Shown piece by piece: positions 1,432-20,846 of a stretch of 64,000 bases of DNA (the first letter of the stretch is position 1; each line of letters opens with the position of its first letter). Source of the stretch: Staphylococcus phage SAC; sequence record OR234014.1; one strand, written 5' to 3'. The notes beneath the pieces are model-generated. The model searched no databases. It worked only from the letters and a program-made list of their open reading frames with translations, and had not been told where the DNA came from. A program made the position numbers and the translations under genes.

Positions 1432-1578
1432 ATACCTATTAATTTAGGTGTTTTTTATATTGTAAGAAATAGAGTAACACTACTACTATAATAGTAAAGG
1501 CAGTAGAGATAGACAGGACAATAATAACAGTAAAAGAAATCTTACCATGTTTACTTTAATAACAATAATAAAACTATG

Positions 1579-1608
1579 TTGACTTTTTATTATTATATAC
1601 TTTATAAT
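1579..1608 (+). promoter_or_regulatory. sigma-A-type promoter P1 (TTGACT-17/18-TATAAT)
   Basis: TTGACT at 1579-1584 and TTATAAT at 1602-1608. Confidence 0.5.
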
Positions 1609-1647
1609 GTTGACTTTTAATAATAAGTTATATAATATTACTCACTA
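1607..1647 (+). repeat. 41-nt direct repeat copy 1, containing promoter P2 (TTGACT...TATAAT)
   Basis: 'atgttgacttttaataataagttatataatattactcacta' recurs identically at 1872-1912. Confidence 0.7.
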
Positions 1648-1843
1648 CTAATAGTACATAGTATAACTAGTTATTAAAATGGTATACTAAAGAATACCAT
1701 AGAAAACTATATATAAGGAAAGGCTCCTATATACTAAACTACTTATATGCTGTAATATACTAATACTCTAATTAAGTGTAAGGGAAGAGGGGGATATATT
1801 ACTAACTTTATTGTAAAATGAATACAATTAGTTATTAGTAATG

Positions 1844-1872
1844 TTGACATAGTTTAATAAAGTAATGGTTAA
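1844..1872 (+). promoter_or_regulatory. weak promoter-like P3 (TTGACA-17-GGTTAAT)
   Basis: Consensus -35 TTGACA at 1844-1849; the -10 is poor. Confidence 0.25.
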
Positions 1873-1912
1873 TGTTGACTTTTAATAATAAGTTATATAA
1901 TATTACTCACTA
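1872..1912 (+). repeat. 41-nt direct repeat copy 2, containing promoter P4 (TTGACT 1875-1880, TATAAT 1896-1901)
   Basis: Identical to 1607-1647. It faces the GC-rich element and the terminator at 2032-2066. Confidence 0.7.
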
Positions 1913-1916
1913 ATTA

Positions 1917-1990
1917 GGTTCCTTAGGTAGCCCCATAGCCCTGTCAGACCCACCCACTTTAGTGGCATTTTACCCCTGCCCCCGTATAAT
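1917..1990. other. GC-rich island (about 60% GC) in AT-rich DNA; possible core of a small RNA or protein-binding site
   Basis: 'ggttccttaggtagccccatagccctgtcagacccacccactttagtggcattttacccctgcccccg'. Contains the palindrome ccactttagtgg and the direct repeat tagcccca/tagccc. Confidence 0.3.
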
Positions 1991-2031
1991 ATATTTATAT
2001 TAACCTATTGTATACAATCCTAATAAATAAT

Positions 2032-2066
2032 AAAAAAAAAGAAAGGGAGTTTATTCCCTTTCAATT
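2032..2066. terminator. bidirectional rho-independent terminator
   Basis: A9 run, stem GAAAGGGA / TCCCTTTC with loop gtttatt, then a T-rich tail. U-tracts are present for transcripts of both strands. It overlaps the stop of the 2071..2415 gene. Confidence 0.7.
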
Positions 2067-2070
2067 TGTT

Positions 2071-2415
2071 TTACATCATTTCTATAGCTTCTGATTTAAT
2101 TTGTTCATAGTCTTTAATGTGTTTATTAAACTCTTCAACACGCATATGTTCCAATATATAATCTGCTAACTCAAACACTTTATTATCAACTAGTCTTATT
2201 GTTGTATCGTCTGTAAAGTCTAGGTTAGACGGTATATATTCTAATGGTGTTATGTCTTTATTCTCTTTTAATTGGTTTACAATATGAATGTATTTGCATA
2301 GTAAATCGTGTTCAACAACATCTACCTCTATTGTTTCATAGATAGCTGTTAATAATAAGTCAAATTCAATTCCTTCAAGTTCTGCTGTTTGTTCCATTTG
2401 GTTAAGTAATTTCAT
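2071..2415 (-). CDS. hypothetical early protein (paralogue of 2758..3108)
   Basis: 114 aa. Shares the pattern L..AI.E...V.E.D.L.KY.H...QL...PSN.D...HM..E.F with 2758..3108. Own promoter upstream. Confidence 0.6.
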   Translation of the reverse strand: MKLLNQMEQTAELEGIEFDLLLTAIYETIEVDVVEHDLLCKYIHIVNQLKENKDITPLEYIPSNLDFTDDTTIRLVDNKVFELADYILEHMRVEEFNKHIKDYEQIKSEAIEMM

Positions 2416-2458
2416 AGTTTATCAATCCCTTTTCTTTTATTTGTATTTCCTTAATTAC

Positions 2459-2486
2459 ATTATATCAAATATACAGTTAATTGCAA
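2459..2486 (-). promoter_or_regulatory. promoter TTGCAA-16-TATAAT
   Basis: Minus-strand TTGCAA (2481-2486) and TATAAT (2459-2464), upstream of the 2415 start. Confidence 0.5.
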
Positions 2487-2519
2487 TAGTTTTAGTTAAT
2501 TATTTTGGGAAGTTTTACA

Positions 2520-2780
2520 CTAATGATTATTCAGTAATTCTTTTATTACGTCTGGTGCTAGTGTTGTTATGTCATAGTCTTGTCTTAACTCATCTAAACT
2601 ATTGTACTGTTTAATCGTTCCGCTGTCTTTGTCACTGCCTTTAATTGTTTGTTTGCTTACTGTTTCGTTAATAGCTTCATCAATATCAGTGAAGCTATTA
2701 ACGTTGTCCATTATATCTATAAGTTCTTTATCAGATAAGTTCATGTGTAATGTCTCCTTAGAATAGCATTTGTTCTGCAT
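2520..2780 (-). CDS. hypothetical early protein
   Basis: 86-aa ORF co-oriented in the early gene array. Confidence 0.5.
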   Translation of the reverse strand: MQNKCYSKETLHMNLSDKELIDIMDNVNSFTDIDEAINETVSKQTIKGSDKDSGTIKQYNSLDELRQDYDITTLAPDVIKELLNNH

Positions 2781-3108
2781 TAAATTCTAGTGTTTCAATA
2801 TCCATAATCATTTGTTCAAATTGTTCTTTGTTCATGTGGTTTAAGATAACGTTAGTAAAGTGTTCTGCTTTGTCTTGTGCTAATATAGCTCCCTCGTAAG
2901 TGCTATAATCAATGTTAGATGGTTTACGTTCTGCTTGTGTTAATGCTTCCTTGTTTAATAACTGTTGTTCTAAGTGGTTGTATTTATCTAATGCATCATA
3001 TTCAACAAGCTCTGTCATAACCGCTTCCTCAATTGCTAAAACTAATAATCTTTCAAGTTTAGTGTTTCCGTTTGCCATTTCTTTTACTGTGTTTTTCATT
3101 ATAATCAA
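2758..3108 (-). CDS. hypothetical early protein (paralogue of 2071..2415)
   Basis: 116 aa. Conserved early promoter immediately upstream. Confidence 0.6.
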   Translation of the reverse strand: MIIMKNTVKEMANGNTKLERLLVLAIEEAVMTELVEYDALDKYNHLEQQLLNKEALTQAERKPSNIDYSTYEGAILAQDKAEHFTNVILNHMNKEQFEQMIMDIETLEFNAEQMLF

Positions 3109-3149
3109 TTCCTTTTCTGTTTGTTTTTTATTTGTTGTGTTCCTTACAT

Positions 3150-3184
3150 CTATTATATTACACTATCTTAGGTGTAGTGTCAAC
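3150..3184 (-). promoter_or_regulatory. early promoter unit (TTGACA-17-TGTAATATAAT plus upstream A/T tract)
   Basis: Minus-strand 'aaaaagtgTTGACActacacctaagatagTGTAATATAATag'. Near-identical copies at 3608, 4544, 5010 and 5399. Confidence 0.7.
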
Positions 3185-3190
3185 ACTTTT

Positions 3191-3292
3191 TTAAAACTTT
3201 TTTAAGTTTTTTTTAGTGTTCTCTATAGTTACAATAGCATCCGTCTTTTGTGTTGAACGGTATTTCTTACCTTTGTATTTAAACTTAATCAT
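3191..3292 (-). CDS. small ORF (33 aa), truncated member of the 'MIK(F/V)KYKGKKYRSTQ' family
   Basis: MIKFKYKGKKYRSTQKTDAIVTIENTKKNLKKF. RBS AAGGGG. The 48-aa paralogue is at 4157..4303. The ORF runs into the downstream promoter's A/T tract. Confidence 0.3.
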   Translation of the reverse strand: MIKFKYKGKKYRSTQKTDAIVTIENTKKNLKKF

Positions 3293-3307
3293 GTTAATAA
3301 TCCCCTT

Positions 3308-3583
3308 TTATTTTGTTTGTACATTGCAATATAGTTTATATTCCAAGTAATCTTCTTTTTTGATGTATTCATTGAAATCCCCTATAACATTTGTTAGGTT
3401 TATCCATGAGTTTGTTGCCTTACTAAAACCTCTTAGTGTTATTAATCCAGTAGGCAATTTGAATTGTTCTCTTTTTAATCCTAATTCTTTTCCTATGCTG
3501 TCTTTGATGTATTTAACATCTTTTTTAATTTCTGTTATTGTTGTTTTTGGTTTAGTTTCTATTTTAATATTCATGTGTATCAA
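3308..3583 (-). CDS. hypothetical early protein
   Basis: 91-aa ORF with the conserved early promoter upstream. Confidence 0.55.
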   Translation of the reverse strand: MIHMNIKIETKPKTTITEIKKDVKYIKDSIGKELGLKREQFKLPTGLITLRGFSKATNSWINLTNVIGDFNEYIKKEDYLEYKLYCNVQTK

Positions 3584-3607
3584 TCCTTTTCTGTTTGTTT
3601 ACTACAT

Positions 3608-3641
3608 CTATTATATTACACTATCTTAATGATAGTGTCAA
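3608..3641 (-). promoter_or_regulatory. early promoter unit
   Basis: Minus-strand 'gtgTTGACActatcattaagatagTGTAATATAATagatgtagtaaacaaacagaaaagg'. Confidence 0.7.
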
Positions 3642-3700
3642 CACTTTTTTAAAACTTTTTTAAGTTTTTTTATTTGTTTGCTGTTCTTTGTTGTGTTCCT

Positions 3701-3991
3701 TTATAGTCTTCCTGCATTAATAAATAACTCTAACTGTTTGTTTAACTCATCCATAATAAAGCTATCAAGTTCATGAGCAGTAATATTATATTTCTTGTTT
3801 CCTGATGTCATTGAAACTACATTGTACACGTTATCGAATTTGTTAAAGTAAATACCATATTGTAACAAACCCCAATCATTAACATAAATATCAGTAACAT
3901 CTAAGTTATTATGTTTGCTTGAAGCTTCGTTCTGTGTTCTAATAACTGTATAATCTTGGTTTAATTCTTCTAAAGTTTTATAGTTTTTCAT
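3701..3991 (-). CDS. hypothetical early protein
   Basis: 96-aa ORF. RBS AGAGGGA. Confidence 0.55.
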   Translation of the reverse strand: MKNYKTLEELNQDYTVIRTQNEASSKHNNLDVTDIYVNDWGLLQYGIYFNKFDNVYNVVSMTSGNKKYNITAHELDSFIMDELNKQLELFINAGRL

Positions 3992-4043
3992 AAGTAATCA
4001 ATCCCTCTTCTTTTTTTGTTTGTTGTGTTCCTTACTACAATTA

Positions 4044-4075
4044 ATATATTACAGTATAAGCTCGTATTTGTAAAG
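4044..4075 (-). promoter_or_regulatory. early promoter variant (TTTACA-17-TGTAATATATT)
   Basis: Minus-strand 'TTTACAaatacgagcttatactgTAATATAtt'. Confidence 0.5.
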
Positions 4076-4142
4076 TATTATATCAAAGAAATAAGGGAAG
4101 TTTTACACTAATGTGAAGCGGTTATATAGGCATAAAAAAATA

Positions 4143-4165
4143 AGGGTGGTTAGCCCTTATCTAAT
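4143..4165 (-). terminator. rho-independent terminator
   Basis: Stem ataaggg / cccttat with loop tggttag. Followed by a T7 run on the minus strand (plus-strand A-run at 4134-4140). Confidence 0.6.
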
Positions 4166-4303
4166 AAATATATTAATATTCTCTTGTAATCTAATAAACC
4201 AGTCTATCAATGTGATTACTGCTGTACCACCTAGAATAGTTACAATAGCATCTGTATTTTGTGTTGAGCGGTATTTCTTGCCTTTATATTTAACTTTAAT
4301 CAT
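4157..4303 (-). CDS. small protein (48 aa), 'MIKVKYKGKKYRSTQ' family, C-terminal hydrophobic segment
   Basis: MIKVKYKGKKYRSTQNTDAIVTILGGTAVITLIDWFIRLQENINIFIR. RBS AAGGGA. Its stop lies inside the terminator stem. Confidence 0.45.
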   Translation of the reverse strand: MIKVKYKGKKYRSTQNTDAIVTILGGTAVITLIDWFIRLQENINIFIR

Positions 4304-4355
4304 TGTGTATCAATCCCTTATTTTTATTTTTTAAGCCTATGTAATAGGCTTTTGG

Positions 4356-4502
4356 CTATGACCAATTTATATCTTGTCTTTCTTTCTCTAGTTTTACCAG
4401 TTGTCTACGTAAAAAACGTGCTAACTCTCTGCTATTCCTACCATATATTAAGGCTTGCTGTACCTCGTCAATTTCTCTTAAAACTATTCTTATATCTCTC
4501 AT
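4356..4502 (-). CDS. small basic helical protein (48 aa)
   Basis: MRDIRIVLREIDEVQQALIYGRNSRELARFLRRQLVKLEKERQDINWS. Sits directly downstream of an early promoter. Confidence 0.4.
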   Translation of the reverse strand: MRDIRIVLREIDEVQQALIYGRNSRELARFLRRQLVKLEKERQDINWS

Positions 4503-4543
4503 TTTAATACCCGCCTTTTTTGATTTGTTTTTGTATTACATCT

Positions 4544-4575
4544 ATTATATTACAGTATCTTAAATGTAATGTCAA
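4544..4575 (-). promoter_or_regulatory. early promoter unit
   Basis: Minus-strand 'TTGACAttacatttaagatactgTAATATAATagatgtaatac'. Confidence 0.7.
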
Positions 4576-4583
4576 ACATTATT

Positions 4584-4817
4584 TTAACCTTTTTTAACAA
4601 GTTTTGTTTTTCCATTTTCAAGTGTTAGTTTCACGCATTTGTCTGTTGTTGTAATTTCTTTTACATTGCTATTGTAAAGAGCATGACAAGCTTTATTAAT
4701 ATGATAGTATAAATCATCACATTCTTCCATATCTGACCACAGTCTATAATCATTTGATATAGAACCTTGTGCTTTAATTCTGTTATAAGTTCCTTTAATG
4801 TAATATAAATATTTCAT
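4584..4817 (-). CDS. hypothetical early protein
   Basis: 77 aa. RBS GGAGG lies in the 3' end of the upstream small ORF. Confidence 0.55.
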   Translation of the reverse strand: MKYLYYIKGTYNRIKAQGSISNDYRLWSDMEECDDLYYHINKACHALYNSNVKEITTTDKCVKLTLENGKTKLVKKG

Positions 4818-4818
4818 A

Positions 4819-4974
4819 TTATTTAACCTCCGTATAGTGTATTACAAGGCTATAACCTTGCTTTGTTGGTTCGTGGTATGCTCGTGTGATAATTACGTTG
4901 TTTTCTCTCTCGAATTGTTCCATTTCATAGCCGTAGTTCTTATATGGTTTACTGTTAGTAATTAGTGTTTTCAT
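4819..4974 (-). CDS. small ORF (51 aa)
   Basis: MKTLITNSKPYKNYGYEMEQFERENNVIITRAYHEPTKQGYSLVIHYTEVK. Stop TAA is 1 nt before the next ATG. Confidence 0.4.
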   Translation of the reverse strand: MKTLITNSKPYKNYGYEMEQFERENNVIITRAYHEPTKQGYSLVIHYTEVK

Positions 4975-5009
4975 AATTAATCAATTCCTTTTCTGTTTGT
5001 TTACTACAT

Positions 5010-5044
5010 CTATTATATTACACTATCTTAATGATAGTGTCAAC
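5010..5044 (-). promoter_or_regulatory. early promoter unit
   Basis: Near-identical to the 3608-3641 copy. Confidence 0.7.
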
Positions 5045-5046
5045 TA

Positions 5047-5361
5047 TTATTTTAACTTTTTTTCTTTAATAATTTCTGCATTCTCATTCACTAGGTATAA
5101 CGTATTATCTAGCTCTATAAATAAGTGTTTGTTCACTACCTTAACATTAATGTTAATTGGTAATCTATTTGAATGTGATACGCTAAAGACTTTCGTTTCT
5201 TTAAATAGTTCTAATGTTTCATAACTACCATCAATGTAAGCTAAATATTTAACTTGATAATGTGTTGAGTATTTTAAGTCATTTCTATAGTAGTTATTGC
5301 TTTTGTAACCGTCCATGTCTAAAAGTTCTATTAGTATATCTCCAATTTGATTTACGTTCAT
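5047..5361 (-). CDS. hypothetical early protein
   Basis: 104-aa ORF. Confidence 0.55.
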   Translation of the reverse strand: MNVNQIGDILIELLDMDGYKSNNYYRNDLKYSTHYQVKYLAYIDGSYETLELFKETKVFSVSHSNRLPININVKVVNKHLFIELDNTLYLVNENAEIIKEKKLK

Positions 5362-5398
5362 ATCTTATCAATTCCTTTCGGTTTGTTTACTACGCTTA

Positions 5399-5429
5399 TT
5401 ATATTACAGTATCTTGTATTTAATGTCAA
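5399..5429 (-). promoter_or_regulatory. early promoter unit
   Basis: Minus-strand 'TTGACAttaaatacaagatactgTAATATAATaagcgtagtaaacaaaccgaaagg'. Confidence 0.65.
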
Positions 5430-5685
5430 TAGGTTATACGAAAGTTTTTCAAAAGAAATGATTTCTTACTATTATATAGAAGAAACTAGAAATTACAGCT
5501 TAAATTAATTATTATAATCAATCGATTTAATTGTATACAATGCAGTGTAAAAATAACCATTTAATTTGATTAAAGGTATTGCATTTATATGTCAGTCTAT
5601 TAAAAGAAATAATGATATAGAAACAATAAAAAAGTTAGAAAAAGAATTACAAGAATTATATAAAAGAATTATATAAAAGAGTTAT

Positions 5686-5715
5686 AGATTAGGCTATTAA
5701 CCTAATCTTTTTTTA
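5686..5715 (+). terminator. plus-strand rho-independent terminator
   Basis: Perfect 8-bp stem agattagg / cctaatct, loop ctattaa, followed by T7 on the plus strand only. Confidence 0.6.
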
Positions 5716-5943
5716 TGTTGTTTGAAGCGGTTAATATAAAGGGAAAACAGCGCCTGCTACTTAGGAAAATCATAGATTTATACTTATGATGTTTATAACA
5801 GTAAGAGAGCATTAAGCTTATAGGTCTATATTCAACGGTAATACTTTTTAGGTAGTATTTATCCTATAATATTTACTTGCTTATATAAGGTAGTTAAATA
5901 GGCAATACAAGCATATGAAAAAGCTAGAGTAAAGCAACCCTAG

Positions 5944-6351
5944 CTACTTAATTTGATTCAAAATATCCTTAACAGCTTCTAATGTTAAATCTGATAACTT
6001 AATATTCTTATCACTATTAGTATCAATAATTACAGTATAGTTATCTACATCATACTGTATAACTTTAAGTACTGAATAAGTAACTAACTCGTATTCTGTA
6101 TGTGTGTGATATTCTATCATTGCGTACCCTATACCTAATTCAGTTAAGATAGGTTCTAATGTTTTTCTTCTCTCCATAAAATCTTTAATAGTATATTGCA
6201 TACCGTCTTTACTTAAAAATGCAGGCTCGTCATTGTAAATATAAAATAAATTCTCAATAAGTTCTAGTAAATCTTCTTCTGTTCCCTCACAAAGACTTAC
6301 TGTATAAAGTAATTCATCGTATAATTTATCCTTTGCTTCTTGAATATTCAT
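5944..6351 (-). CDS. hypothetical protein
   Basis: 135-aa ORF. RBS AGGAGG. Confidence 0.55.
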   Translation of the reverse strand: MNIQEAKDKLYDELLYTVSLCEGTEEDLLELIENLFYIYNDEPAFLSKDGMQYTIKDFMERRKTLEPILTELGIGYAMIEYHTHTEYELVTYSVLKVIQYDVDNYTVIIDTNSDKNIKLSDLTLEAVKDILNQIK

Positions 6352-6964
6352 TGATATTCCTCCTTTATCCTATCCTAAGTGTATCATAAGTTTTAGGTAA
6401 TGTAAAGTATTTTATTTTAACCAGTATCTAACTTATCCGCTTCATTAATCCAACCTTAATTTAATCCCTGATACTTATCTTTTATCATACATACCTGTAA
6501 TAATTACTTGTCTGCAGAAAAGGTCTAAAGCTTTCATATTCAATATATTGTAGTAACAAAACATACTTAGCAACTTGTAACATAACTGTAATATTATTAT
6601 AATGCTGTTGTAACTAAATTCTCATCTAATTCTCATAAACATATGTTATAATCTAAACAACAATTAATTAGTTGTTAGTATTTTAATACGAATAACTTAT
6701 TACAGGCGTTACCTTGTTGTAGCGTAGCGTAAAACAACAAGGTATACGCTGTTTTGTTCTTATCTTTTTAAAAAGATAAGTCGTACGGTTAGTACGAAAT
6801 ACAAATATATAAATAAGTAATAACAAATATTTATACATAACTAACAGATAAATATACAAATTATTAGATTAACTATGTTGAAACGGGCATACTATGCTCA
6901 AATTGATATACAATTATTAGCCAAGATTAAATACAACATAATTACTCAGAATATAAATATAATA

Positions 6965-6993
6965 TAAAAAAGAAGCGGTTTAATACCGCTTCT
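6965..6993 (-). terminator. rho-independent terminator
   Basis: Stem agaagcggt / accgcttct with loop ttaat. T-run follows on the minus strand. Confidence 0.55.
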
Positions 6994-7160
6994 ACTTCTT
7001 CAATATGATATTATAAATACTGTTTATCTTCTTTAACTAACCTTAATAAAGCATACTCATTCTCAATGACACTATAACCCTATAAGATATCTTGTAATAT
7101 TAATCTAGTCCCTACAGGTGTTAGTGTACATACTGATGTTCATTAAAGTCAGCCTCTCTA

Positions 7161-7442
7161 TTATTTACCAAATCTTTCTTTAGCAATCTTTTTCATTTGC
7201 TCTTTGCGCTCATTACTTACCGGTTTTCTTAATGTAATTAAATCCTCATCTAATACAACTTTAACCAATACTGGTGTTTCATTTTCTAATTGTTCTAATA
7301 CTTCCACCTTATCAGGGTACTTTTTCATAATATCAGTAATATAAGGTTTTCTACTTGCATAAATAATCCATTGCCCTTGATTATAATTCATACTTACTTC
7401 TTGTTCTTCAAAACTATATCCTCTACTTACAACTTTAGTCAT
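7161..7442 (-). CDS. hypothetical protein
   Basis: 93-aa ORF. RBS AAGGAGGG. Confidence 0.5.
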   Translation of the reverse strand: MTKVVSRGYSFEEQEVSMNYNQGQWIIYASRKPYITDIMKKYPDKVEVLEQLENETPVLVKVVLDEDLITLRKPVSNERKEQMKKIAKERFGK

Positions 7443-7568
7443 TCTAATACCCTCCTTTATATTTAAGACCCTTAAGCTAGGGACGTTATAGTTCTATATT
7501 AAACGATAATCATTTTCTAGTAGTATTTATCCTATAAAATAACTTAATCTTTAAGAGCCTAATAACCT

Positions 7569-7877
7569 TTATAATAAATTAGTGATTAACCTAACTGTTT
7601 CTAAGGTAATAGGGTTGCTTTTACTGTCTACATAAGACAGTTCACTATCGAAACCAGAACCACTTAAATAGATTTGATTACGTTCCACATTAAATACAAT
7701 TAATTTAGTAGGGTCTACTTTACTAAACACTACTACATATTCCTTGCCATTGGCTAAAGGAAGAATAGCTCCGCCTGTTATTTTTTGAATTTTTTTGATT
7801 ACAACAGAATCGTCTTCCATCATAGTTTCTTCTTTGTTCATACCTTCTTGTACTATTTTTCTTTTTATTGTTTTCAT
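7569..7877 (-). CDS. hypothetical protein
   Basis: 102-aa ORF. Confidence 0.5.
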   Translation of the reverse strand: MKTIKRKIVQEGMNKEETMMEDDSVVIKKIQKITGGAILPLANGKEYVVVFSKVDPTKLIVFNVERNQIYLSGSGFDSELSYVDSKSNPITLETVRLITNLL

Positions 7878-7879
7878 TG

Positions 7880-8089
7880 TTATTTCCCCTTATCCATAAA
7901 TACAGTAACTATAATGTTTTGTAAACACTTAATAATCTTATCTCTTTGAGTGTCAGATACTTCATACAAGTCTTCTGTATTATCTAAGAAGCGGTTAAAT
8001 TCATCTTGATTAGTAAAATCTACACCTTTATTAGTCTCATCTAAAAATTTCTCAATAACTCTTTCTGCTATTTTTTTATTACTACTCAT
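7880..8089 (-). CDS. hypothetical protein
   Basis: 69-aa ORF, tightly packed with its neighbours. Confidence 0.45.
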   Translation of the reverse strand: MSSNKKIAERVIEKFLDETNKGVDFTNQDEFNRFLDNTEDLYEVSDTQRDKIIKCLQNIIVTVFMDKGK

Positions 8090-8103
8090 TATCTATTCTC
8101 CTT

Positions 8104-8406
8104 TTATTTTTTAGTAACTGTATAATACTCGTCATTAGTAAGTTTACTAATATCTATATCTTCTTCAGAAAAATATAGATTTTTATCATCTTTACTTAAT
8201 TGTTTTAATACACTATCAATGTATATAGGTAATACCTTCCCATCATTAAAAACCACATCAATACTATCTTTTAAGTATATATGATTCTCATCTATGATTG
8301 TATAAATATTATAATCTTCTAATACCTTACTCCCAATTAACGCTACTTTTCCGTTACTCATATTAAGAACTCCTTTTATATAATATTTGAAGTGGTTATA
8401 CTTCAT
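8104..8406 (-). CDS. hypothetical protein
   Basis: 100-aa ORF. Confidence 0.5.
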   Translation of the reverse strand: MKYNHFKYYIKGVLNMSNGKVALIGSKVLEDYNIYTIIDENHIYLKDSIDVVFNDGKVLPIYIDSVLKQLSKDDKNLYFSEEDIDISKLTNDEYYTVTKK

Positions 8407-9133
8407 TCATAGGATATTCCAGATAATACTTAATTGTTTGTAAAGGTTTATGTACATTAGTGCCATAACCATAGGAATAAATTCCATAAGTATCAGAGTA
8501 AAATTTCTTTATATCAATTAACTCAACTTCTCTATATACTACAACATTATATGGAGATACTACAAACTCATAATCTCCTCCCATAAAAGTATTATATAGT
8601 ACTTGTTTTAACTCAAGACCACTAGTGACTATATCCTTATAGAAGAAGTTGAGATAGTTATCTACTGTATTAAGAAAGTCTTTTACACCTGTATACTCTT
8701 TATAAATATTAATCCAACCTAATTCTAATTCATAATATAGGTTACCCTCTTCATCAAAACTTAGTTTAAGTTTAACCGTATCAATATCTTTACGATGTAT
8801 ATTAAAAGATTGCTCTAAGAAACCTACATCCCAAATATGCTTAACTCCATTAAAATTCTTTAAACCTTTGATACTTAACTGAGCAATAGCTTTGGACATT
8901 AACTTTTCTTCTTTGGTATTTAACTTATGTCTTGATAAGTATTCATAACCATTAAAGTCATATACATATTGGTTATCATCTTTACCTACGCTAATTGACT
9001 TTAAATATTTTTTATTAGTTTCTACATAGTATAAAACACCACCAAGACCAAATAATCCTAAAAAACCACCAATATAATCAACAGAGTAACCTTGTTTCTT
9101 ATACTCTTTAATTTCTTTTCTCTTACTAAACAC
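8396..9133 (-). CDS. hypothetical protein
   Basis: 245-aa ORF. Confidence 0.55.
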   Translation of the reverse strand: MFSKRKEIKEYKKQGYSVDYIGGFLGLFGLGGVLYYVETNKKYLKSISVGKDDNQYVYDFNGYEYLSRHKLNTKEEKLMSKAIAQLSIKGLKNFNGVKHIWDVGFLEQSFNIHRKDIDTVKLKLSFDEEGNLYYELELGWINIYKEYTGVKDFLNTVDNYLNFFYKDIVTSGLELKQVLYNTFMGGDYEFVVSPYNVVVYREVELIDIKKFYSDTYGIYSYGYGTNVHKPLQTIKYYLEYPMNEV

Positions 9134-9152
9134 TATAGCACTCCCTTATACA

Positions 9153-9512
9153 TTATTCTACTTGCTCTTCCATAGATTGAATTGTATGTAGTACCATAGT
9201 AGCTAAATCTCTAATTATCTCAAGTTCATCACTATCTTCATATACATTAGTTAAAGTATCACAGAAAGAGCATGAACCGTAAAAATCACTAACAGTGATA
9301 TCTGGAACACCCTCTACCTTTGATTTAAATTTAGATATAATAGTACCTGAGTAACCATCACCATCATTAATAACAATAGGGTTTGTGTCATGTGTATCTT
9401 TCAACACTAACTCCCCTGCTAACTTGTGTAAGTCTTCATAGAAATAATGCTCATGTTCATCAATAAATTCCATAATATAATCTGTAGTTATACCTTTAGC
9501 TTGTTCTAACAT
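9153..9512 (-). CDS. hypothetical acidic protein
   Basis: 119-aa ORF. RBS AGGAGGA. Confidence 0.5.
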   Translation of the reverse strand: MLEQAKGITTDYIMEFIDEHEHYFYEDLHKLAGELVLKDTHDTNPIVINDGDGYSGTIISKFKSKVEGVPDITVSDFYGSCSFCDTLTNVYEDSDELEIIRDLATMVLHTIQSMEEQVE

Positions 9513-9537
9513 TATATTTTCCTCCTTATTTTTACAA

Positions 9538-9939
9538 TTATTTTAAATTATCTATCGTACTCTTAATCAAATATCCTTCTGGATTAAAAATCTCTTGAAT
9601 AGCAATAGGCAAGCCTATTAATAGCACTAAAAAAGAAATAATAGACAGAGTAACAGCAAATATAATTACTGTGCATCCTGCAGCAGAAAGCTCTTTTTCA
9701 TTCTTATAAACAAACTCAAATAATAGGGTACTATGACCTTCATTAGACTTTTTATCTGACTTATACAAAGCCACCCATAAGATAGCTGTTATAGATAATA
9801 ATATACTTATTGAACATAAATCTATAATACCTTGAGTAACTGTGTATTTAATTAAGGATTCATAACCATGTGTACCTGCTTGCTCTAACTTACCACCTAA
9901 ACTATCTAAACGTTCTAATACTTCTTTATTCATATCCAT
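9538..9939 (-). CDS. membrane protein (2 predicted TM helices)
   Basis: Two hydrophobic segments: ILLSITAILWVALY and TVIIFAVTLSIISFLVLLIGLPIAI. Confidence 0.5.
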   Translation of the reverse strand: MDMNKEVLERLDSLGGKLEQAGTHGYESLIKYTVTQGIIDLCSISILLSITAILWVALYKSDKKSNEGHSTLLFEFVYKNEKELSAAGCTVIIFAVTLSIISFLVLLIGLPIAIQEIFNPEGYLIKSTIDNLK

Positions 9940-9964
9940 ATTATATTCACTCCTTTAATCTTTA

Positions 9965-10003
9965 TATACTAAGTATAAACCTTAACACACATAAAATCAA
10001 CAC
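9965..10003 (-). promoter_or_regulatory. class-2 promoter with TATACT-N-AGTATA palindrome
   Basis: Minus-strand TGTTGA...TTATACTTAGTATA...AAAGGAG. Same architecture at 13113, 15481, 16933 and 22090. Confidence 0.45.
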
Positions 10004-10089
10004 ATTTATGTAAGAGATATAAAAAAATACCTATAGTTATAATAGCTATAGGTATAAATTTTCATATAGAAGCGGTTATATATAATACT

Positions 10090-10398
10090 CTACTTACCTA
10101 GGAACGTACGAATTTCCTTTAGACGCTCTTTTTCTTTTCTGCACTTTTCATCTAAAGATTCCTCATAGTAATCAATAAGACTATAGATACTACTGAATCC
10201 TTTAGGTAGTAATGTGTCACTGTTAATAACCTCTTTTACTACTCTACCATTTTTGATAAACTTCATGTTATTATAATGTTTATCATCATTAACTTTAATA
10301 CAGTAACCTTCACCTAAGTCATAAGTATACCAATCCCCACTACCAAAGTTACAATGACCTAATATATACTCAAATAATTCACTTACCATAATATCCAT
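10090..10398 (-). CDS. hypothetical protein
   Basis: 102-aa ORF, ATGA-coupled to the upstream gene. Confidence 0.5.
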   Translation of the reverse strand: MDIMVSELFEYILGHCNFGSGDWYTYDLGEGYCIKVNDDKHYNNMKFIKNGRVVKEVINSDTLLPKGFSSIYSLIDYYEESLDEKCRKEKERLKEIRTFLGK

Positions 10399-10745
10399 TA
10401 TTCTAACCTCCCATACTCATACATAACTTTATTTTCATATTCTGTATATAAATACCCTAGTAATATATAGATATTAGTATACAAACCTTCTAGCTCCTCT
10501 AAGTCTTTAATTGTTCCCACCTCAAGCGTATCACTCAAAGGAAATACTATATTATCCGCTTCCTCAAACCTAGCAATGATATGGTTGTCTTTATATACAA
10601 GAATATAAATAAGGCTATTACCTACTCTACACCTTACTTTATAACCCCTACCTAAGTACACCTCATAATCTGTAATATTCTCCATTATGCCAGTAACTTC
10701 TCCATACTTCCTACAAAACTTAGCTAATTTTGACATAGTAACCAA
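10398..10745 (-). CDS. hypothetical protein
   Basis: 115-aa ORF. Confidence 0.5.
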   Translation of the reverse strand: MVTMSKLAKFCRKYGEVTGIMENITDYEVYLGRGYKVRCRVGNSLIYILVYKDNHIIARFEEADNIVFPLSDTLEVGTIKDLEELEGLYTNIYILLGYLYTEYENKVMYEYGRLE

Positions 10746-10870
10746 CTCCTTTTTTACCTTTTAAACTTTTCTTCTAGGGAAAACCTATCTAATTTTACCT
10801 AAATGTCAACCATAGAATGCGGGTTCAAGCCCTATTTTTACCTTTGACTACTTTTTCCTAGAGAAAAACT

Positions 10871-11209
10871 TTAGTTATACTGTTCTACTTGTTCTCCAAA
10901 TATATTATACATATATTTTTGATAAGCACTATCTTTTAAATACTTATCATACTCATCTACTAGTATCTTATACATATTACTAACTACATCTTTCAATAAG
11001 GAAACATACACCTTACCTGTACCTTGTACTACTACTTCATACTCACTCATATCATCATATACCATAATAGCACAACCAAAATAAGTATCTTCCAGAAAGA
11101 ACCTATAAATATACTTATCATCACTTGTTCTTATACAATTTGTATACTTAAACTCACCTATACCTGATTTATTATGTAACACTCTATCTAGTATATCTAA
11201 TTCTTCCAT
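10871..11209 (-). CDS. hypothetical protein
   Basis: 112-aa ORF. Confidence 0.5.
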   Translation of the reverse strand: MEELDILDRVLHNKSGIGEFKYTNCIRTSDDKYIYRFFLEDTYFGCAIMVYDDMSEYEVVVQGTGKVYVSLLKDVVSNMYKILVDEYDKYLKDSAYQKYMYNIFGEQVEQYN

Positions 11210-11414
11210 AATAAGCCCCTTTCTATTGTGTTAATAAAACACCTACTCCATATATAAACATAATCAATATAAGTATAGTTAAAAACACTGCTAACTTAAA
11301 TCTATTACTATTACCTTCTTTACTATATACTCTATAACATATATCTATATCTATAACTAAATACATTAATGATAAACTTACTACAAAGTAACCTATACTA
11401 ATACCCTCTTTCTA

Positions 11415-11615
11415 TTACATACCTAACATATGTAGTATTATAGAAGCAAAAACTAAAACAGTTAAAACAAAAGAAACAATAAGATATATACTAAAAAACA
11501 CTTCTTTCTGCTTAATAGATTTAACTATATCAGTAATTAAAGCACTAAGCATACCAACTATAATACTAATACCTAAAATACTAACCGCAATATACATTAA
11601 AGTTGAACTTATCAT
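11415..11615 (-). CDS. small membrane protein (2 TM)
   Basis: 66 aa, almost entirely hydrophobic. Confidence 0.45.
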   Translation of the reverse strand: MISSTLMYIAVSILGISIIVGMLSALITDIVKSIKQKEVFFSIYLIVSFVLTVLVFASIILHMLGM

Positions 11616-11855
11616 CTACAACTCTCCTATATAATAAAGTACTCTACTTACTATGTAACCTAAACTCAAAACAATAGAAATAGTACCAATACAAATACTC
11701 ATAAATAATAAACCAAACACACAAGCTGATTCTAAATCACTAACACTATCATAATTATCAAGTACATGCTTATAATACTTCTTACCAAACCTTATACTTA
11801 GTACAATACCAATAGTAGCTAAAAATATAGCAACGATACTTATAAATATACTCAT
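11616..11855 (-). CDS. small membrane protein (2 TM)
   Basis: 79 aa, hydrophobic. Confidence 0.45.
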   Translation of the reverse strand: MSIFISIVAIFLATIGIVLSIRFGKKYYKHVLDNYDSVSDLESACVFGLLFMSICIGTISIVLSLGYIVSRVLYYIGEL

Positions 11856-11920
11856 AAACTAATCCCCCTTTTTATTGAAGCGGTTTTTATTTCCATTACT
11901 TACCTTACAAAAACCGCTTC

Positions 11921-12106
11921 CTAAATACCAAATAAAGCTAATATACTTGATACCAGTACAACCGTCATAACTGTAAATGATACGATATTAGTCCACTTAT
12001 CAAACCTATCATACTTAATTGACTGAACCATTTCTACTAGAATAAAGGTATACATAAACAAAACCATTACAGCTACTATTGTAAGTAACATTGTTAGTCC
12101 TATCAT
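11921..12106 (-). CDS. small membrane protein (2 TM)
   Basis: 61 aa, hydrophobic. Confidence 0.4.
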   Translation of the reverse strand: MIGLTMLLTIVAVMVLFMYTFILVEMVQSIKYDRFDKWTNIVSFTVMTVVLVSSILALFGI

Positions 12107-12108
12107 AT

Positions 12109-12303
12109 CTATCTCTCCTTCCTATCAGACATATGATGTAATACAGAGAGTATAAAAGCAAGTACAAAAGCAAGTACAAAAGGAATTAAACATGTAATAG
12201 GAATTACCTCTTCCCCTATGATTAAATTCCCTACCCACATACCTAAAATTACTCCTGCTAAACAAAATATATAACGTAAAATAAACTCCAATGCTTTACT
12301 CAA
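12109..12303 (-). CDS. small membrane protein (2 TM)
   Basis: 64 aa, hydrophobic. Adjacent to three similar genes. Confidence 0.4.
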   Translation of the reverse strand: MSKALEFILRYIFCLAGVILGMWVGNLIIGEEVIPITCLIPFVLAFVLAFILSVLHHMSDRKER

Positions 12304-12350
12304 CTTACTTCCTCCTTTATAATTATTCTCAAGTATAACTTAACAAAATA

Positions 12351-12560
12351 CTACTTTAATAACCTTTGTTTAAAGAATCTTACTACGTCTTCACCATAAC
12401 ATACAGATAAAAATACATTATCCCCTGTAACCCTAAAACCACTATCTATACATCTATTTTCGATGTAGTAGTCATTAACTTTTAATGTACTCATGTCCCC
12501 TAAAACTTCTATTTTATATCCTAACTGATTTAAATGTACATAAATATCTGATAAACTCAT
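12351..12560 (-). CDS. hypothetical protein
   Basis: 69-aa ORF. Confidence 0.4.
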   Translation of the reverse strand: MSLSDIYVHLNQLGYKIEVLGDMSTLKVNDYYIENRCIDSGFRVTGDNVFLSVCYGEDVVRFFKQRLLK

Positions 12561-12685
12561 AATACAACTCCTCGTTACTAAGTCTTTATTGAAGCGGTTA
12601 TTTAACCCCTCTATATACTAGTACTACACATAATAATACAAGTGCTGTACATATGTAAGTATACTGAATATTACTATATACCAAA

Positions 12686-13087
12686 TCACAATACGTTACC
12701 ATCTTTCCATATAGTAACTAACTCATTATCTACAACAGTACTAACAGACAATAACCATGTATTTTTACCTTCGACATAGTAGTCAATAACTTCATTAATA
12801 CTACTTCTATACCATACTGAGTTTAATACACTGTTACCTTGCTTATAAGTAACTACTATACTACTTAACTCAGTAGAAGCATCTATAACCGCTTCTACAA
12901 TAAACTTAGTGTCATTAGGTATAGTAATAGATTTATTAGGATACAATGCATTATAAAACGATATATCATCAACAGTTATAACAACAATAAACTGACTATC
13001 AGTAGAATAGTGTCGACCTTTTTTTATATCACCTTTATAATACATATACATTAATTCTATAAACGAAACTTCTCTTTTAATCTTCAT
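12686..13087 (-). CDS. hypothetical protein
   Basis: 133-aa ORF. RBS AAAGGAG. Class-2 promoter upstream. Confidence 0.5.
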   Translation of the reverse strand: MKIKREVSFIELMYMYYKGDIKKGRHYSTDSQFIVVITVDDISFYNALYPNKSITIPNDTKFIVEAVIDASTELSSIVVTYKQGNSVLNSVWYRSSINEVIDYYVEGKNTWLLSVSTVVDNELVTIWKDGNVL

Positions 13088-13112
13088 AATAAATCATCTC
13101 CTTTAACTTTAT

Positions 13113-13149
13113 ATACTTAGTATAAACCATAAGTAATATACTGTCAACA
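13113..13149 (-). promoter_or_regulatory. class-2 promoter (TTGACA-17-TATACT with palindrome)
   Basis: Minus-strand 'gTTGACAgtatattacttatggttTATACTaAGTATAtaaagttaaaggag'. Confidence 0.55.
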
Positions 13150-14119
13150 CATATGTGTAAAATAGTTAAAATTTCTTTATTGTTCGGAAATTACTAAATA
13201 TATTAAACTTTTACTCTAGGGAAAATTAAGTCAATACTACCACAGAAACAAACTATATATATATATTAAATAAGCAATGTTCAGAATTATAGTATACCAT
13301 ATACACAATATCTGATACTAAATATACCTTTATACACAGTAAATACTACTTCAGCTTAGTTTAACTACACATTAGAATAGTTTAGCATATAATCAGCATA
13401 GTTTAATACTACATAAGCATAGTTCACAGTAGTTAAAACTATATAAAAATAAATAGTTAGATGTCTAATAGTTAGATACCTAACTATTTATACACTATGA
13501 AGGTGGGAAGCAAAGAAATTCCTAGGTAACTGTTCTTACTTGCTACTTGCTACTTAGTATATAGGTATACCATGTACCTGTTTTCTTTTAATTACTTACT
13601 AGCTATTACTTAGTATCTACTTATTTATCTATCTAGAAGATGTAAAGAAATTACTAGGTAACTGTTCTTACCTAACCTAAGTGATAGTGGTAGCTACTTT
13701 CTTTTAGCTACTTTCTTTTAGTTACTTACCTATTACTTAATATCTATTACTTACTATTAGAATATTTATTAATACTTAAGTTACTTAATAATTCTTTCTT
13801 CTTATTATTCATATCTTCAAACTGTTATACAGTATTTATTTACTTATTTATTTACTTATCTATTTAGCTATTACTTATACACTACCTACTACCTACTGCT
13901 TATCTATGTGCTATCAATTATTGTTTTTTTATCTATTATTTATTTCCTTGATATATAGGTACTTATAATATCAGTTGTTTCTTTATGTGTTACTTATCTG
14001 ATTTCTTTATCTACTTATATATATTGCTTTCTTTTACCTATTACTTACTTATATAACTTCTACCTACATCAATCTCTATACCTATTTGTTTGTCTGTTTG
14101 GTTGTTTACTCTTCTACAC
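13130..14119. repeat. 1-kb non-coding CT-rich (plus strand) low-complexity region with iteron-like repeats
   Basis: The plus strand is almost G-free. Degenerate TTACTTA / CTAC units. 28-nt direct repeat at 13512-13539 and 13644-13671 (27/28 identical). Tandem 'agctactttctttta' x2 at about 13693-13722. No ORFs. Confidence 0.6.
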
Positions 14120-20189: not shown

Positions 20190-20846
20190 CTATTTACGTT
20201 TACTAAAAAAGCAGTAAGCATCTCTTATTTCCTCAAGTTTACTATTATTTCCTTCATTCATCTCTAATCCCTTTTCTAAAAACGCTTCTAAACTACCTAT
20301 CCAACACCCTGCGTATACTCTATCTAAGCTAGGAATATAAGTCACTTTACCATTAAAAGTTCCAATATTATCTATAGAGTATACTTTTAGTCCTTTGATA
20401 TTTTGAGTACTTGCTTGGGATAATTTAGCATCTGTTAAATTGGTATTTGTTAAGTCTGCATATTCTAAATTAGCCTCATTTAATCTGGAATCTGTTAAAT
20501 TAGCTTTTCTTAAATCAGCATAATATAAATCAGTTCCATATAAAACAGAACCTTCTAAGTTAGCATCATCTAAATCAACACAGCTTAAGTTAGCACGTGT
20601 TAAGTTAGCTCTTGTTAAATCCGCACCTTTTAAGATAGCACCTCTTAAATTAGTATCCTCTAAATCAGCATACCTTAAGACAGCACCTCTTAAATTAGCA
20701 CTCCTTAAGTCAGCATCTACTAAATTAGCATTTCTTAAGATAGTATAACTTAAATCTGCTTTAGCTCCTTCTTCACTATTACTATCTAACCATAATTTAT
20801 GCTCTTCTAAAACTTTATGTAGTTCTTCTTTTGTTATTGTTTTCAT
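20190..20846 (-). CDS. pentapeptide-repeat protein PRP-3 (start reassigned to the internal Met)
   Basis: The ORF track gives 20190..20984. RBS GGAGA sits before the ATG at 20846 and the N-terminus is MKTITKEELHKVLEEHKLW, as in PRP-1. Repeats ADLRSANLRGAVLRYADLEDTNLRGAILKGADLTRANL. Confidence 0.75.
   Translation of the reverse strand: MKTITKEELHKVLEEHKLWLDSNSEEGAKADLSYTILRNANLVDADLRSANLRGAVLRYADLEDTNLRGAILKGADLTRANLTRANLSCVDLDDANLEGSVLYGTDLYYADLRKANLTDSRLNEANLEYADLTNTNLTDAKLSQASTQNIKGLKVYSIDNIGTFNGKVTYIPSLDRVYAGCWIGSLEAFLEKGLEMNEGNNSKLEEIRDAYCFFSKRK

What the first reader, a model, noticed from the sequence alone, without database searches (positions are those of the whole stretch)
1570..2070. 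Tandem strong plus-strand promoters facing a GC-rich element and a terminator: candidate abundant small non-coding RNA
Four plus-oriented sigma-A-type promoters, two of them inside a perfect 41-nt direct repeat (1607-1647, 1872-1912), point into about 130 nt that has no ORF. That stretch includes a 74-nt GC-rich island (1917-1990) and ends at a bidirectional terminator (2032-2066). All flanking protein genes are on the other side or the other strand. This looks like a highly expressed sRNA or a transcription-activated origin or terminal element.
Basis: seen in the sequence. Interest (0 to 1): 0.7.

Follow-up and report, generated by a model that had tools for sequence, protein, structure and literature searches.

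The report
Phage terminal-repeat boundary with orphan promoters
The flagged stretch is where the long terminal repeat of a Staphylococcus Silviavirus phage genome begins (the virion DNA end is cut at 1924|1925), with gene-less early-type promoters reading across the cut site and a strictly conserved 33-bp element just inside it; it is probably not a free-standing abundant small RNA gene.

Summary
The window is a Romulus/Remus-like Staphylococcus Silviavirus (99.6-99.7% identity). The sequence features are mostly real:
- A 43-nt exact repeat at 1605-1647 and 1870-1912.
- A GC island of 54% GC against 29% for the window.
- A bidirectional terminator at 2041-2062.
- No ORF between the promoters and the terminator.

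"Four strong promoters" is overstated. One site is good, two identical sites are moderate, and one is weak.

The region is the junction between unique DNA and the long terminal repeat (LTR).
- Two Silviavirus records end exactly at window base 1925.
- In a third phage, the distance between the two junction motifs is 10,893 bp, equal to its published PhageTerm repeat length.
- Kayvirus LTR borders map to the same aligned position.

The LTR in the window is therefore 1925-13522.

A 33-nt core (1961-1993) is identical in phage K. It starts at nucleotide 37 from the terminus in both genera.

I found no Rfam match, no significant fold, and no covariation outside the terminator. Kayvirus RNA-seq did not validate the homologous promoter; it only lists a low-level "snc004" covering the whole intergenic region.

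Best reading: a terminus-forming or packaging junction with an orphan transcription unit crossing the cut site. The function of that transcription is inferred, not shown.

The parts
1434..1456 (+). Small hairpin (ACCTA-TTAATT-TAGGT) followed by GTTTTTT. Probable terminator of the upstream plus-strand gene (865-1431), isolating the promoter array from read-through.
   Evidence: Read directly from the sequence. It was not called by the scan because it has fewer than 3 GC pairs. Hairpins of the same CACCTA...TAGGTG type are listed as RNA-seq-supported terminators in phage K.
1579..1608 (+). P1: TTGACT-18 nt-TATAAT, the best sigma-A-type promoter of the array.
   Evidence: 11 of 12 consensus positions. 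It scores 13.5 bits with the Kayvirus early-promoter matrix and is the best plus-strand site in the window.
1605..1647 (+). Copy 1 of the 43-nt exact direct repeat. It contains P2 (TTGACT 1610-1615, TAATAT 1633-1638).
   Evidence: about 7 bits. TAATAT -10 boxes are typical of kayvirus host-takeover promoters (PMC7698491).
1844..1873 (+). P3: TTGACA with a poor -10 (GGTTAA/GTTAAT). Probably only a -35-like TGTTGAC box.
   Evidence: below 5 bits. The TGTTGAC box is conserved in all 8 aligned phages.
1870..1912 (+). Copy 2 of the 43-nt repeat. It contains P4 (TTGACT 1875-1880, TAATAT 1898-1903). The predicted start is near 1909-1912, 13-16 nt before the LTR cut site.
   Evidence: A promoter at this position is conserved in Kayvirus, CF5 and V1SC04. 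SSP49 carries a precise 265-bp deletion that fuses P1 to this copy.
1916..1930 (.). Junction motif AGGTTCCTT|AGGTAG. The unique/LTR boundary, which is the virion DNA end, lies between 1924 and 1925.
   Evidence: StAP1 and LSA2311 records end at the reverse complement of AGGTAGCCCC. The PhageTerm repeat length of 10,893 bp equals the motif-to-motif distance in CIFT_MFB_MRSA12. It aligns with the Kayvirus border TAAGTACCTG|GGTAG.
1917..1990 (.). GC-rich island, C-rich on the plus strand. Its first half varies between genera; its second half is the conserved core.
1961..1993 (.). Conserved 33-nt core AGTGGCATTTTACCCCTGCCCCCGTATAATATA, occupying nucleotides 37-69 from the terminus. It contains a promoter-like GTGGCA-17-TATAAT. 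Candidate recognition site for the end-forming or packaging machinery.
   Evidence: It is identical in phage K and starts at nucleotide 37 from the K genome end. It is the 5th longest exact match between the window and 50 kb of phage K. It is unique in the window, with 0 expected by chance. It is present in 269 Staphylococcus phage records and absent from 185,579 bacterial and archaeal genomes.
1994..2040 (.). AT-rich spacer ending in A9. Its length and sequence vary between genera.
2041..2062 (.). Bidirectional intrinsic terminator, shared by the minus-strand LTR genes and the plus-strand junction transcript.
   Evidence: Compensatory changes in 8 phages. The phage K homologue is RNA-seq supported on both strands.
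1925..13522 (.). Long terminal repeat (11,598 bp) carrying minus-strand early 'tre'-type genes.
   Evidence: The far boundary is AAATTCC|TAGGTAACTG at 13522|13523.

Best explanation
The interval is the junction between the unique genome and the long terminal repeat (LTR) of a Silviavirus. It is the site where one physical end of the virion DNA is made.

Shown:
- The end lies at 1924|1925, inside a diverged version of the K-like border motif.
- The LTR runs from 1925 to 13522.
- A 33-bp core sits at a fixed distance (nucleotides 37-69) inside the end. It is identical across genera, while the 36 bp between the cut and the core have diverged.
- An array of early-promoter-like elements lies just outside the LTR and points across the cut site to a bidirectional terminator. 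There is no gene in between.

Inferred:
- The core is the recognition or anchoring site for the end-forming machinery (terminase or an accessory protein), which cuts a measured distance away. This would resemble lambda cosB or T7 pacB, which lie on one side of the cut only.
- Host RNA polymerase starting at P4 (and P1/P2) makes a short non-coding transcript of about 155 nt from P4 and about 455 nt from P1. That transcript, or the polymerase itself, acts in cis on the junction.
- An open complex at P4 would cover the cut site, which lies at about +13 to +16.
- The closest functional analogy is phage T7, where a gene-less promoter reads into the terminal repeat. There, polymerase pausing at the concatemer junction recruits the packaging proteins.
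For: Terminus position:
- Records of StAP1 (LTR 8,243 bp) and LSA2311 (10,492 bp) end at the base equal to window 1925.
- In CIFT_MFB_MRSA12, the distance from AGGTAG... to ...AAATTCC is exactly 10,893 bp. That equals the PhageTerm repeat length in PMC13346280.
- Kayvirus LTR ends annotated in P4W, Maine (PhageTerm) and Stab21 fall at the same aligned column.
- The other boundary maps to window 13522|13523.

Core:
- A 33-nt exact match to phage K, at the same offset from the end.
- Invariant except for 3 changes in CF5, across 8 diverse phages.
- Unique in the window, present in 269 phage records, and absent from bacterial genomes.

Orphan transcription unit:
- Hairpin plus T-run at 1434-1456, then the promoters, then the terminator at 2041-2062, with no ORF.
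- The same architecture occurs in Kayvirus: a terminator, then TGTTGACTT boxes (four annotated in the phage 812 record), then the border.
- The distance from P4 to the cut site is conserved at about 21-23 nt in Silviavirus and Kayvirus.

Same-sense transcription in phage K:
- snc004 and a terminator validated on both strands.

T7 precedent:
- Polymerase pausing at the concatemer junction recruits gp18/gp19 (PMC3276506).
- The gene-less T7 promoter that reads into the terminal repeat is from my own knowledge.
Against: - There are no transcript data for any Silviavirus.
- In Kayvirus vB_SauM-515A1, the homologous promoter is not among the 58 RNA-seq-validated early promoters. It appears only as a PhagePromoter prediction with score 0.894.
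- Phage K snc004 is simply the whole intergenic interval. It could be the 3' end of the gp024-gp022 operon.
- Only P1 scores like a real promoter.
- Most TGTTGAC boxes in Kayvirus lack a usable -10, so they may be protein-binding repeats rather than promoters.
- No terminase-binding data exist for any Herelleviridae phage.
- The core itself looks like a promoter (GTGGCA-17-TATAAT), which could explain its conservation differently.
- The far LTR boundary has neither a core nor a promoter array.
Confidence: 0.55

Rival explanations
1. It is a trans-acting small RNA gene. A plus-strand RNA of about 155 nt (or about 455 nt) carries unpaired C-rich runs. These would pair with G-rich ribosome-binding sites of host or phage mRNAs, as the UCCC-motif Rsa sRNAs of S. 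aureus do (own knowledge).
For: The unit has a promoter and a terminator and no ORF. The plus strand of the island has six runs of three or more C and is predicted to be unstructured. The homologous region of phage K is listed as sncRNA snc004 in the same sense.
Against: No Rfam match. No conserved structure or covariation outside the terminator. The 5' half of the would-be RNA is not conserved, and in V1SC04 it is G-rich instead. The conserved part extends through GTATAATATA, which looks like a DNA signal. Kayvirus RNA-seq did not validate a promoter here, and the abundant intergenic RNAs reported lie at other loci. The RNA would start 13-16 nt before a DNA cut site whose position is conserved, which points to a DNA-level function.
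Confidence: 0.15
2. The repeated (A/G)TGTTGACTT boxes are not promoters. They are binding repeats for a packaging protein such as a small terminase subunit. Together with the core they would flank the cut site, like the lambda cosB R-sites or the SPP1 pacL/pacR boxes.
For: The box, rather than a full promoter, is what is repeated and conserved: 4 copies here and 4 annotated boxes in Kayvirus at spacings of about 20-68 bp. Several boxes lack a usable -10. The boxes lie within 50-350 bp of the cut and on one side only.
Against: TGTTGAC is also the -35 region of many bona fide early promoters elsewhere in the window. P1 and P4 have correctly spaced -10 boxes of the host-takeover type. SSP49 lacks two of the four boxes; it is a deposited phage isolate, so presumably viable.
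Confidence: 0.15
3. It is a transcription-primed replication start. RNA from the array would prime DNA synthesis into the LTR, either as an origin or to duplicate the single LTR copy of concatemers. The models are the T7 primary origin (tandem promoters plus an AT-rich stretch) and the T4 R-loop origins (own knowledge).
For: Tandem promoters are followed by a GC island and then a 47-nt AT-rich stretch. The position at the exact LTR edge is where synthesis would have to start in order to copy the repeat.
Against: The RNA would be C-rich, which is the least favourable composition for a stable RNA-DNA hybrid (own knowledge). A terminator follows within 150 nt. I saw no iterons or DnaA-type boxes. 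The GC-skew turn near 1850-1900 coincides with the switch in gene orientation and is therefore uninformative.
Confidence: 0.1
4. It is a boundary or insulator of early transcription. The outward-facing promoters and the bidirectional terminator would stop polymerases leaving the LTR early genes, loosely comparable to the injection-stop region at the edge of the T5 terminal repeat (own knowledge).
For: It is a convergent arrangement at the exact LTR edge, with a terminator working in both directions. The LTR genes are the earliest transcripts in kayviruses.
Against: A terminator alone would be enough. This reading does not explain the fixed 36-bp spacing and perfect conservation of the core. 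Two-step DNA entry is not known for these phages.
Confidence: 0.05

Closest known systems
LTR borders of K-like (Kayvirus) phages, marked by the 12-bp inverted repeats TAAGTACCTGGG / CCCAGGTACTTA (Lobocka et al. 2012, as cited in PMC6022877 and PMC4111496)
   Same: It is homologous in position and partly in sequence. Window 1873-1993 aligns at about 78% identity with the inner edge of the Kayvirus left LTR. The cut falls at the same aligned column, GGTAG is the first LTR sequence in both, and the 33-nt core and the terminator follow.
   Different: The 12-mers are not present. The Silviavirus versions are TTAGGTTCCTT|AGG and CC|TAGGTAACTG, about 8 of 10 matches as an inverted repeat and about 10 of 13 as a direct repeat. 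The LTR is 11.6 kb rather than about 8 kb. The promoter pair is duplicated with a 265-nt period.
Phage K sncRNA snc004 (NC_005880.2 8370-8665, minus strand; PMC9241854)
   Same: Same intergenic position between the last LTR gene and the first unique gene, and the same sense as the window plus strand. It ends at the same bidirectional terminator.
   Different: snc004 was defined by a prediction tool plus at least 5-fold coverage, and it spans the whole intergenic region. No own promoter was reported and no function is known. Nothing is known for Silviavirus.
Phage T7 right-end elements: a gene-less promoter reading into the terminal repeat, and the polymerase pause site at the concatemer junction
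   Same: A gene-less promoter is aimed across a terminal-repeat boundary. In T7, polymerase pausing at the junction recruits the packaging proteins (PMC3276506).
   Different: T7 uses its own polymerase at late times and has a 160-bp repeat. Here the promoters are host sigma-A type and early-like, and the repeat is 11.6 kb. There is no sequence homology. This is an analogy only.
One-sided packaging recognition sites next to a cut site (lambda cosB next to cosN; SPP1 pacL/pacR around pacC)
   Same: A conserved element at a fixed short distance from the cut, on one side only, with repeated boxes nearby.
   Different: No binding protein has been identified. These phages make long direct repeats, not cohesive or headful ends.

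Membership tests
Twortvirinae (K-like) LTR border | Lies exactly at the edge of the terminally redundant DNA (virion end). | tested here: met
   Two Silviavirus records end at the base equal to window 1925. The motif-to-motif distance of 10,893 bp equals the published PhageTerm repeat length. Kayvirus borders align to the same column.
Twortvirinae (K-like) LTR border | 12-bp inverted repeats TAAGTACCTGGG / CCCAGGTACTTA at the two borders. | tested here: not met
   The exact 12-mers are absent. The diverged counterparts are AGGTTCCTT|AGGTAG (1916-1930) and AAATTCC|TAGGTAACTG (13516-13532), whose near-palindromic CCT(T)AGG centre leaves the orientation ambiguous.
Twortvirinae (K-like) LTR border | The repeat carries small early 'tre' genes. 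| tested here: met
   TreN and TreB homologues are annotated inside the repeat in related records. Early-type promoters with TAATAT -10 boxes are repeated upstream of the small minus-strand ORFs.
Sigma-A (sigma-70-type) promoter | -35 and -10 hexamers at 16-18 nt spacing, scoring within the range of validated phage early promoters. | tested here: inconclusive
   P1 is within the range (13.5 bits). P2 and P4 are just below the minimum (7.0 against 7.9). P3 fails. Activity cannot be tested here. The homologous Kayvirus site was not validated by RNA-seq.
Intrinsic (rho-independent) terminator | GC-rich hairpin followed by a T-run, with the stem conserved through compensatory changes. | tested here: met
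   Called on both strands. Of the 8 stem pairs, 5 show at least one both-sided change across the 8 phages. The phage K homologue is RNA-seq supported on both strands.
Described structured RNA family (Rfam) | Match to a covariance model, or a conserved secondary structure with covariation. | tested here: not met
   No match even at E-value up to 10 or at gathering thresholds. Fold z-scores are +0.5 and -1.5. The RNAalifold covariation term is about 0 outside the terminator. No tRNA or tmRNA.
Small non-coding RNA (snc004-like) | A discrete transcript from this interval during infection. | not testable with these tools
   There is only positional homology to phage K snc004. No Silviavirus transcriptome was found.
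G-quadruplex element | A G3+N1-7 x4 motif that is conserved in relatives. | tested here: not met
   The only canonical motif in the 64 kb is on the minus strand at 1931-1955. It is absent in that form from Kayvirus, CF5 and V1SC04.

The most novel reading that the evidence does not exclude
Host-polymerase transcription across the cut site, or polymerase parked at P4 over it, is required for terminase to recognise or cut the unique/LTR junction, or to duplicate the LTR from concatemers. The 33-bp core would be the terminase loading site. This would be a T7-like coupling of transcription to end formation, in Herelleviridae, using host sigma-A promoters.
Probability: 0.2. Interest if true: 0.7.

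Novelty: new member of a known kind. Interest (0 to 1): 0.45.

Why it matters
Kayvirus and Silviavirus phages are the main therapeutic phages against S. aureus. How their 8-12 kb terminal repeats are cut and duplicated is unknown.

Three results here make that question testable by simple mutagenesis and end mapping:
- The exact end in Silviavirus is pinned at 1924|1925.
- A 33-bp element is shown to be invariant at nucleotides 37-69 from the terminus across genera.
- A gene-less promoter array is shown to face the cut site.

The result also has practical use. Several deposited Silviavirus genomes, including the Romulus/Remus records with LTRs, place the repeat borders about 1 kb away from the motif-defined ends. 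Collapsed assemblies can be re-oriented from the motif alone.

Tried and rejected
- **Rfam** at permissive and gathering thresholds, and **ARAGORN**: nothing in the interval.
- **RNA folding** of the island and of the whole putative transcript: not better than shuffles.
- **RNAalifold** on 8 diverse phages: only the terminator covaries. A possible GGUAG:CUGCC pairing is invariant and therefore uninformative.
- **G-quadruplex idea:** the motif is real and unique in the window, but it is not conserved.
- **Rho-utilisation-site idea** (C-rich, G-poor RNA): dropped, because the C excess is not conserved outside the core.
- **Late promoter on the minus strand of the core:** Kayvirus reads TTTTATATTA against the late consensus TGTTATATTA. 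The window reads AAATATATTA, and no late promoter was mapped there.
- **Host mimicry:** the core is absent from 185,579 bacterial and archaeal genomes. IMG/VR gave a single contig.
- **Romulus record MW546077** suggested an LTR of 5.3 kb with different borders (window 2977 and 13466). These come from a Nanopore/canu assembly, not from end mapping (PMC8065394), and both fall away from the motif-defined ends, so I set them aside.
- **Comparison with Bacillus phage SPO1:** GC-rich hairpins and repeats sit near its repeat border. The orientation and the gene layout differ, so I claim no homology.
- **Second GC-rich spot at 20862-21043:** it is coding sequence.

Full report
**Identity of the window.** The interval and its flanks are 99.6-99.7% identical to Staphylococcus phages Romulus, Remus and EW41 (genus Silviavirus, Herelleviridae). 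The 640-nt non-coding stretch 1432-2070 lies between two convergent genes of unknown function. These are 865-1431 on the plus strand (Romulus_144) and 2071-2415 on the minus strand (Romulus_143).

**Check of the observation.**
- The exact repeat is 43 nt (1605-1647 and 1870-1912) and lies inside a 72-nt repeat with a 265-nt period.
- The island 1917-1990 has 54% GC against 29% for the window. It ties for the top 74-nt stretch of the 64 kb and has the highest C content.
- The hairpin at 2041-2062 is called as a terminator on both strands.
- No plus-strand ORF of 30 aa or more is present.
- A small hairpin plus T-run at 1434-1456 follows the upstream gene, so the promoters would form a separate unit.

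I scored them with a matrix built from 58 RNA-seq-validated Kayvirus early promoters (PMC7698491 Table S2).
- P1 scores 13.5 bits. It is the best plus-strand site in the window, but rank 20 overall and below the training median.
- The two repeat copies, P2 and P4, score about 7 bits, just under the weakest validated promoter.
- P3 fails.

**What the region is.** A distant BLAST of the intergenic region shows that window 1873-1993 is about 78% identical to a segment present in roughly 200 Kayvirus records. That segment lies at the inner edge of the left long terminal repeat (LTR).
- In P4W (LTR annotated in the record) and Maine (PhageTerm), the LTR edge falls inside the match. It corresponds to window position about 1925.
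- Stab21 gives the same position.
- Within Silviavirus, the records of StAP1 and LSA2311 carry both LTR copies. Both end exactly at the reverse complement of AGGTAGCCCC, which is window 1925.
- StAP1's record start maps the other border to window 13522|13523; LSA2311's alignment ends at the same base.
- For CIFT_MFB_MRSA12, a paper reports a PhageTerm repeat of 10,893 bp (PMC13346280). In that genome, the distance from the A of AGGTAG to the last C of AAATTCC is exactly 10,893 bp.

The LTR of the window is therefore 1925-13522 (11,598 bp). The window comes from an assembly with one collapsed LTR copy.

The Romulus/Remus records with LTRs (MW546076/77) use other borders. Those derive from a Nanopore/canu assembly rather than from end mapping (PMC8065394).

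**Anatomy around the end.** Eight diverse phages were aligned: S. aureus Silviavirus, the S. warneri phage CF5, the S. capitis phage V1SC04, and four kayviruses. They share the following layout, in order:
1. TGTTGAC boxes, the last of which has a usable -10 box.
2. A cut-site motif ending in GGTAG, the first LTR bases.
3. About 36 bp of variable GC-rich sequence.
4. An almost invariant core, AGTGGCATTTTACCCCTGCCCCCGTATAATATA.
5. An AT-rich spacer of variable length.
6. A terminator hairpin that keeps pairing through compensatory changes.

The core is a 33-nt exact match to phage K. It starts at nucleotide 37 from the genome end in both genera. It is the fifth longest exact match between the window and the rightmost 50 kb of phage K, a region that includes conserved replication genes. 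The core is unique in the window and absent from bacterial genomes.

The distance from the -10 box of P4 to the cut is 21 nt here and 23 nt in Kayvirus. Transcripts would therefore start 13-16 nt before the cut. A polymerase bound at P4 would cover the cut site; this last point is inferred from the usual -55 to +20 footprint of open complexes.

The far border (13522|13523) shares the CCT(T)AGG-centred motif, but it has no core and no promoter array.

The natural isolate SSP49 has a precise 265-bp deletion between the two repeat copies. One promoter pair next to the border therefore appears to be enough.

**RNA hypothesis.**
- No Rfam family matches.
- No fold is better than shuffles.
- No covariation appears outside the terminator.
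- The 5' half of the putative RNA is not conserved.

Published Kayvirus transcriptomes place the abundant non-coding RNAs near the tRNA genes, not here. The RNA-seq-based promoter list of vB_SauM-515A1 has no entry at the homologous site, which appears only among PhagePromoter predictions.

One phage K study lists snc004 (8370-8665, minus strand). That interval is the entire homologous intergenic region, in the same sense as the window plus strand. The study also confirms the terminator at 8370 in both directions. Transcription across the border is therefore likely at some level. It may be operon read-through, and nothing indicates high abundance.

**Mechanism.**
- Shown: the position of the end, the fixed offset and conservation of the core, and the gene-less promoter-to-terminator layout.
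- Inferred: the core is the one-sided recognition site of the end-forming machinery, as lambda cosB or T7 pacB are. Transcription, or polymerase occupancy from P4, P2 or P1, acts in cis on the junction.

The closest precedent is T7, where polymerase pausing at the concatemer junction recruits gp18/gp19 (PMC3276506).

The rival readings are a trans-acting C-rich sRNA, TGTTGAC boxes acting as protein-binding repeats, a transcription-primed start of DNA synthesis into the LTR, and a transcription boundary. Each is listed with its own test.

**Novelty.** K-like LTR borders and their 12-bp repeats are known (PMC6022877, PMC4111496, citing Lobocka 2012). This locus is the Silviavirus counterpart, with diverged border repeats. 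In the papers I searched, I found no description of the invariant core at nucleotides 37-69 or of the promoter array facing the cut site. The phage 812 record AY842851 merely annotates the boxes as 'possible recombination sites' and part of the island as a stem-loop. I rate the locus as a new member of a known kind, of moderate interest.

Noticed in passing
window 13512-13539 and 13644-13671: The far-border sequence AAAGAAATTCCTAGGTAACTGTTCTTAC is repeated 132 nt further out in unique DNA, with one change (C to A) at the second-to-last LTR base (window 13521). In CIFT_MFB_MRSA12 the true border reads AAATTCC|CATGTACCTG, while the outer copy keeps TAGGTAACTG.
   Followed up: partly
window 13523-14119: A non-coding stretch of about 600 nt just outside the far LTR border is full of short T/C-rich repeats (TACTTGC, TTACTTA and similar). 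StAP1 has a tandem GTAAGTA-type repeat run (AGTAGTAAGTAGTAAGT...) at the same place.
   Followed up: no
window 2041-2062; L022 (SAPYZU_15), L006 (Maine): The loop and inner stem of the bidirectional terminator are inverted between lineages (GGGAGTTTATTCCC against GGGAATAAACTCCC). The same flip distinguishes P4W from Maine.
   Followed up: no
window 1931-1955, minus strand: The only canonical G-quadruplex motif in the whole 64 kb (GGGTGGGTCTGACAGGGCTATGGGG) lies 6 nt inside the genome end. It is not conserved in other genera.
   Followed up: yes
window 3138-5466: Five copies of an 83-nt unit (early promoter TTGACA-17-TAATAT plus leader) precede small minus-strand LTR genes. Some paralogous genes are present too (2071-2415 and 2758-3108 are both phrog_8830).
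   Followed up: partly
window 10095-10104: A copy of the border motif in opposite orientation (TACCTAGGAA) lies inside the LTR. It may be chance.
   Followed up: no
window 61589-61808, minus strand: A group I intron (Rfam RF00028, 91 bits).
   Followed up: no
MW546077.1 / MW546076.1 (L002, L003): The deposited Romulus/Remus genomes with LTRs place the repeat borders at window-equivalent 2977 and 13466, not at the motif-defined ends (1925 and 13522). The first lies inside an ORF. The LTR is probably under-called by about 1.1 kb.
   Followed up: yes
L024 (Bacillus phage SPO1, record 13100-13500): The SPO1 terminal-redundancy border (13185) is flanked by GC-rich hairpins (GGAGGGGGTATAGACCCCTCC, resembling Kayvirus GGGGTATATAGACCCACCCCC) and five TTCAAAACTA repeats. 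The orientation relative to the border differs, so homology is unclear.
   Followed up: partly
L021 (SSP49) and L022 (SAPYZU_15): The promoter region is unstable. SSP49 lost 265 bp by recombination between the 43-nt repeats, and SAPYZU_15 expanded a TAATGGT unit between P3 and P4.
   Followed up: yes
window 20862-21043: A second GC-rich spot (54%) is coding sequence, with a Gly-rich linker, in a minus-strand gene that overlaps ORFs 20190-20984 and 20869-21384. It is ordinary.
   Followed up: yes
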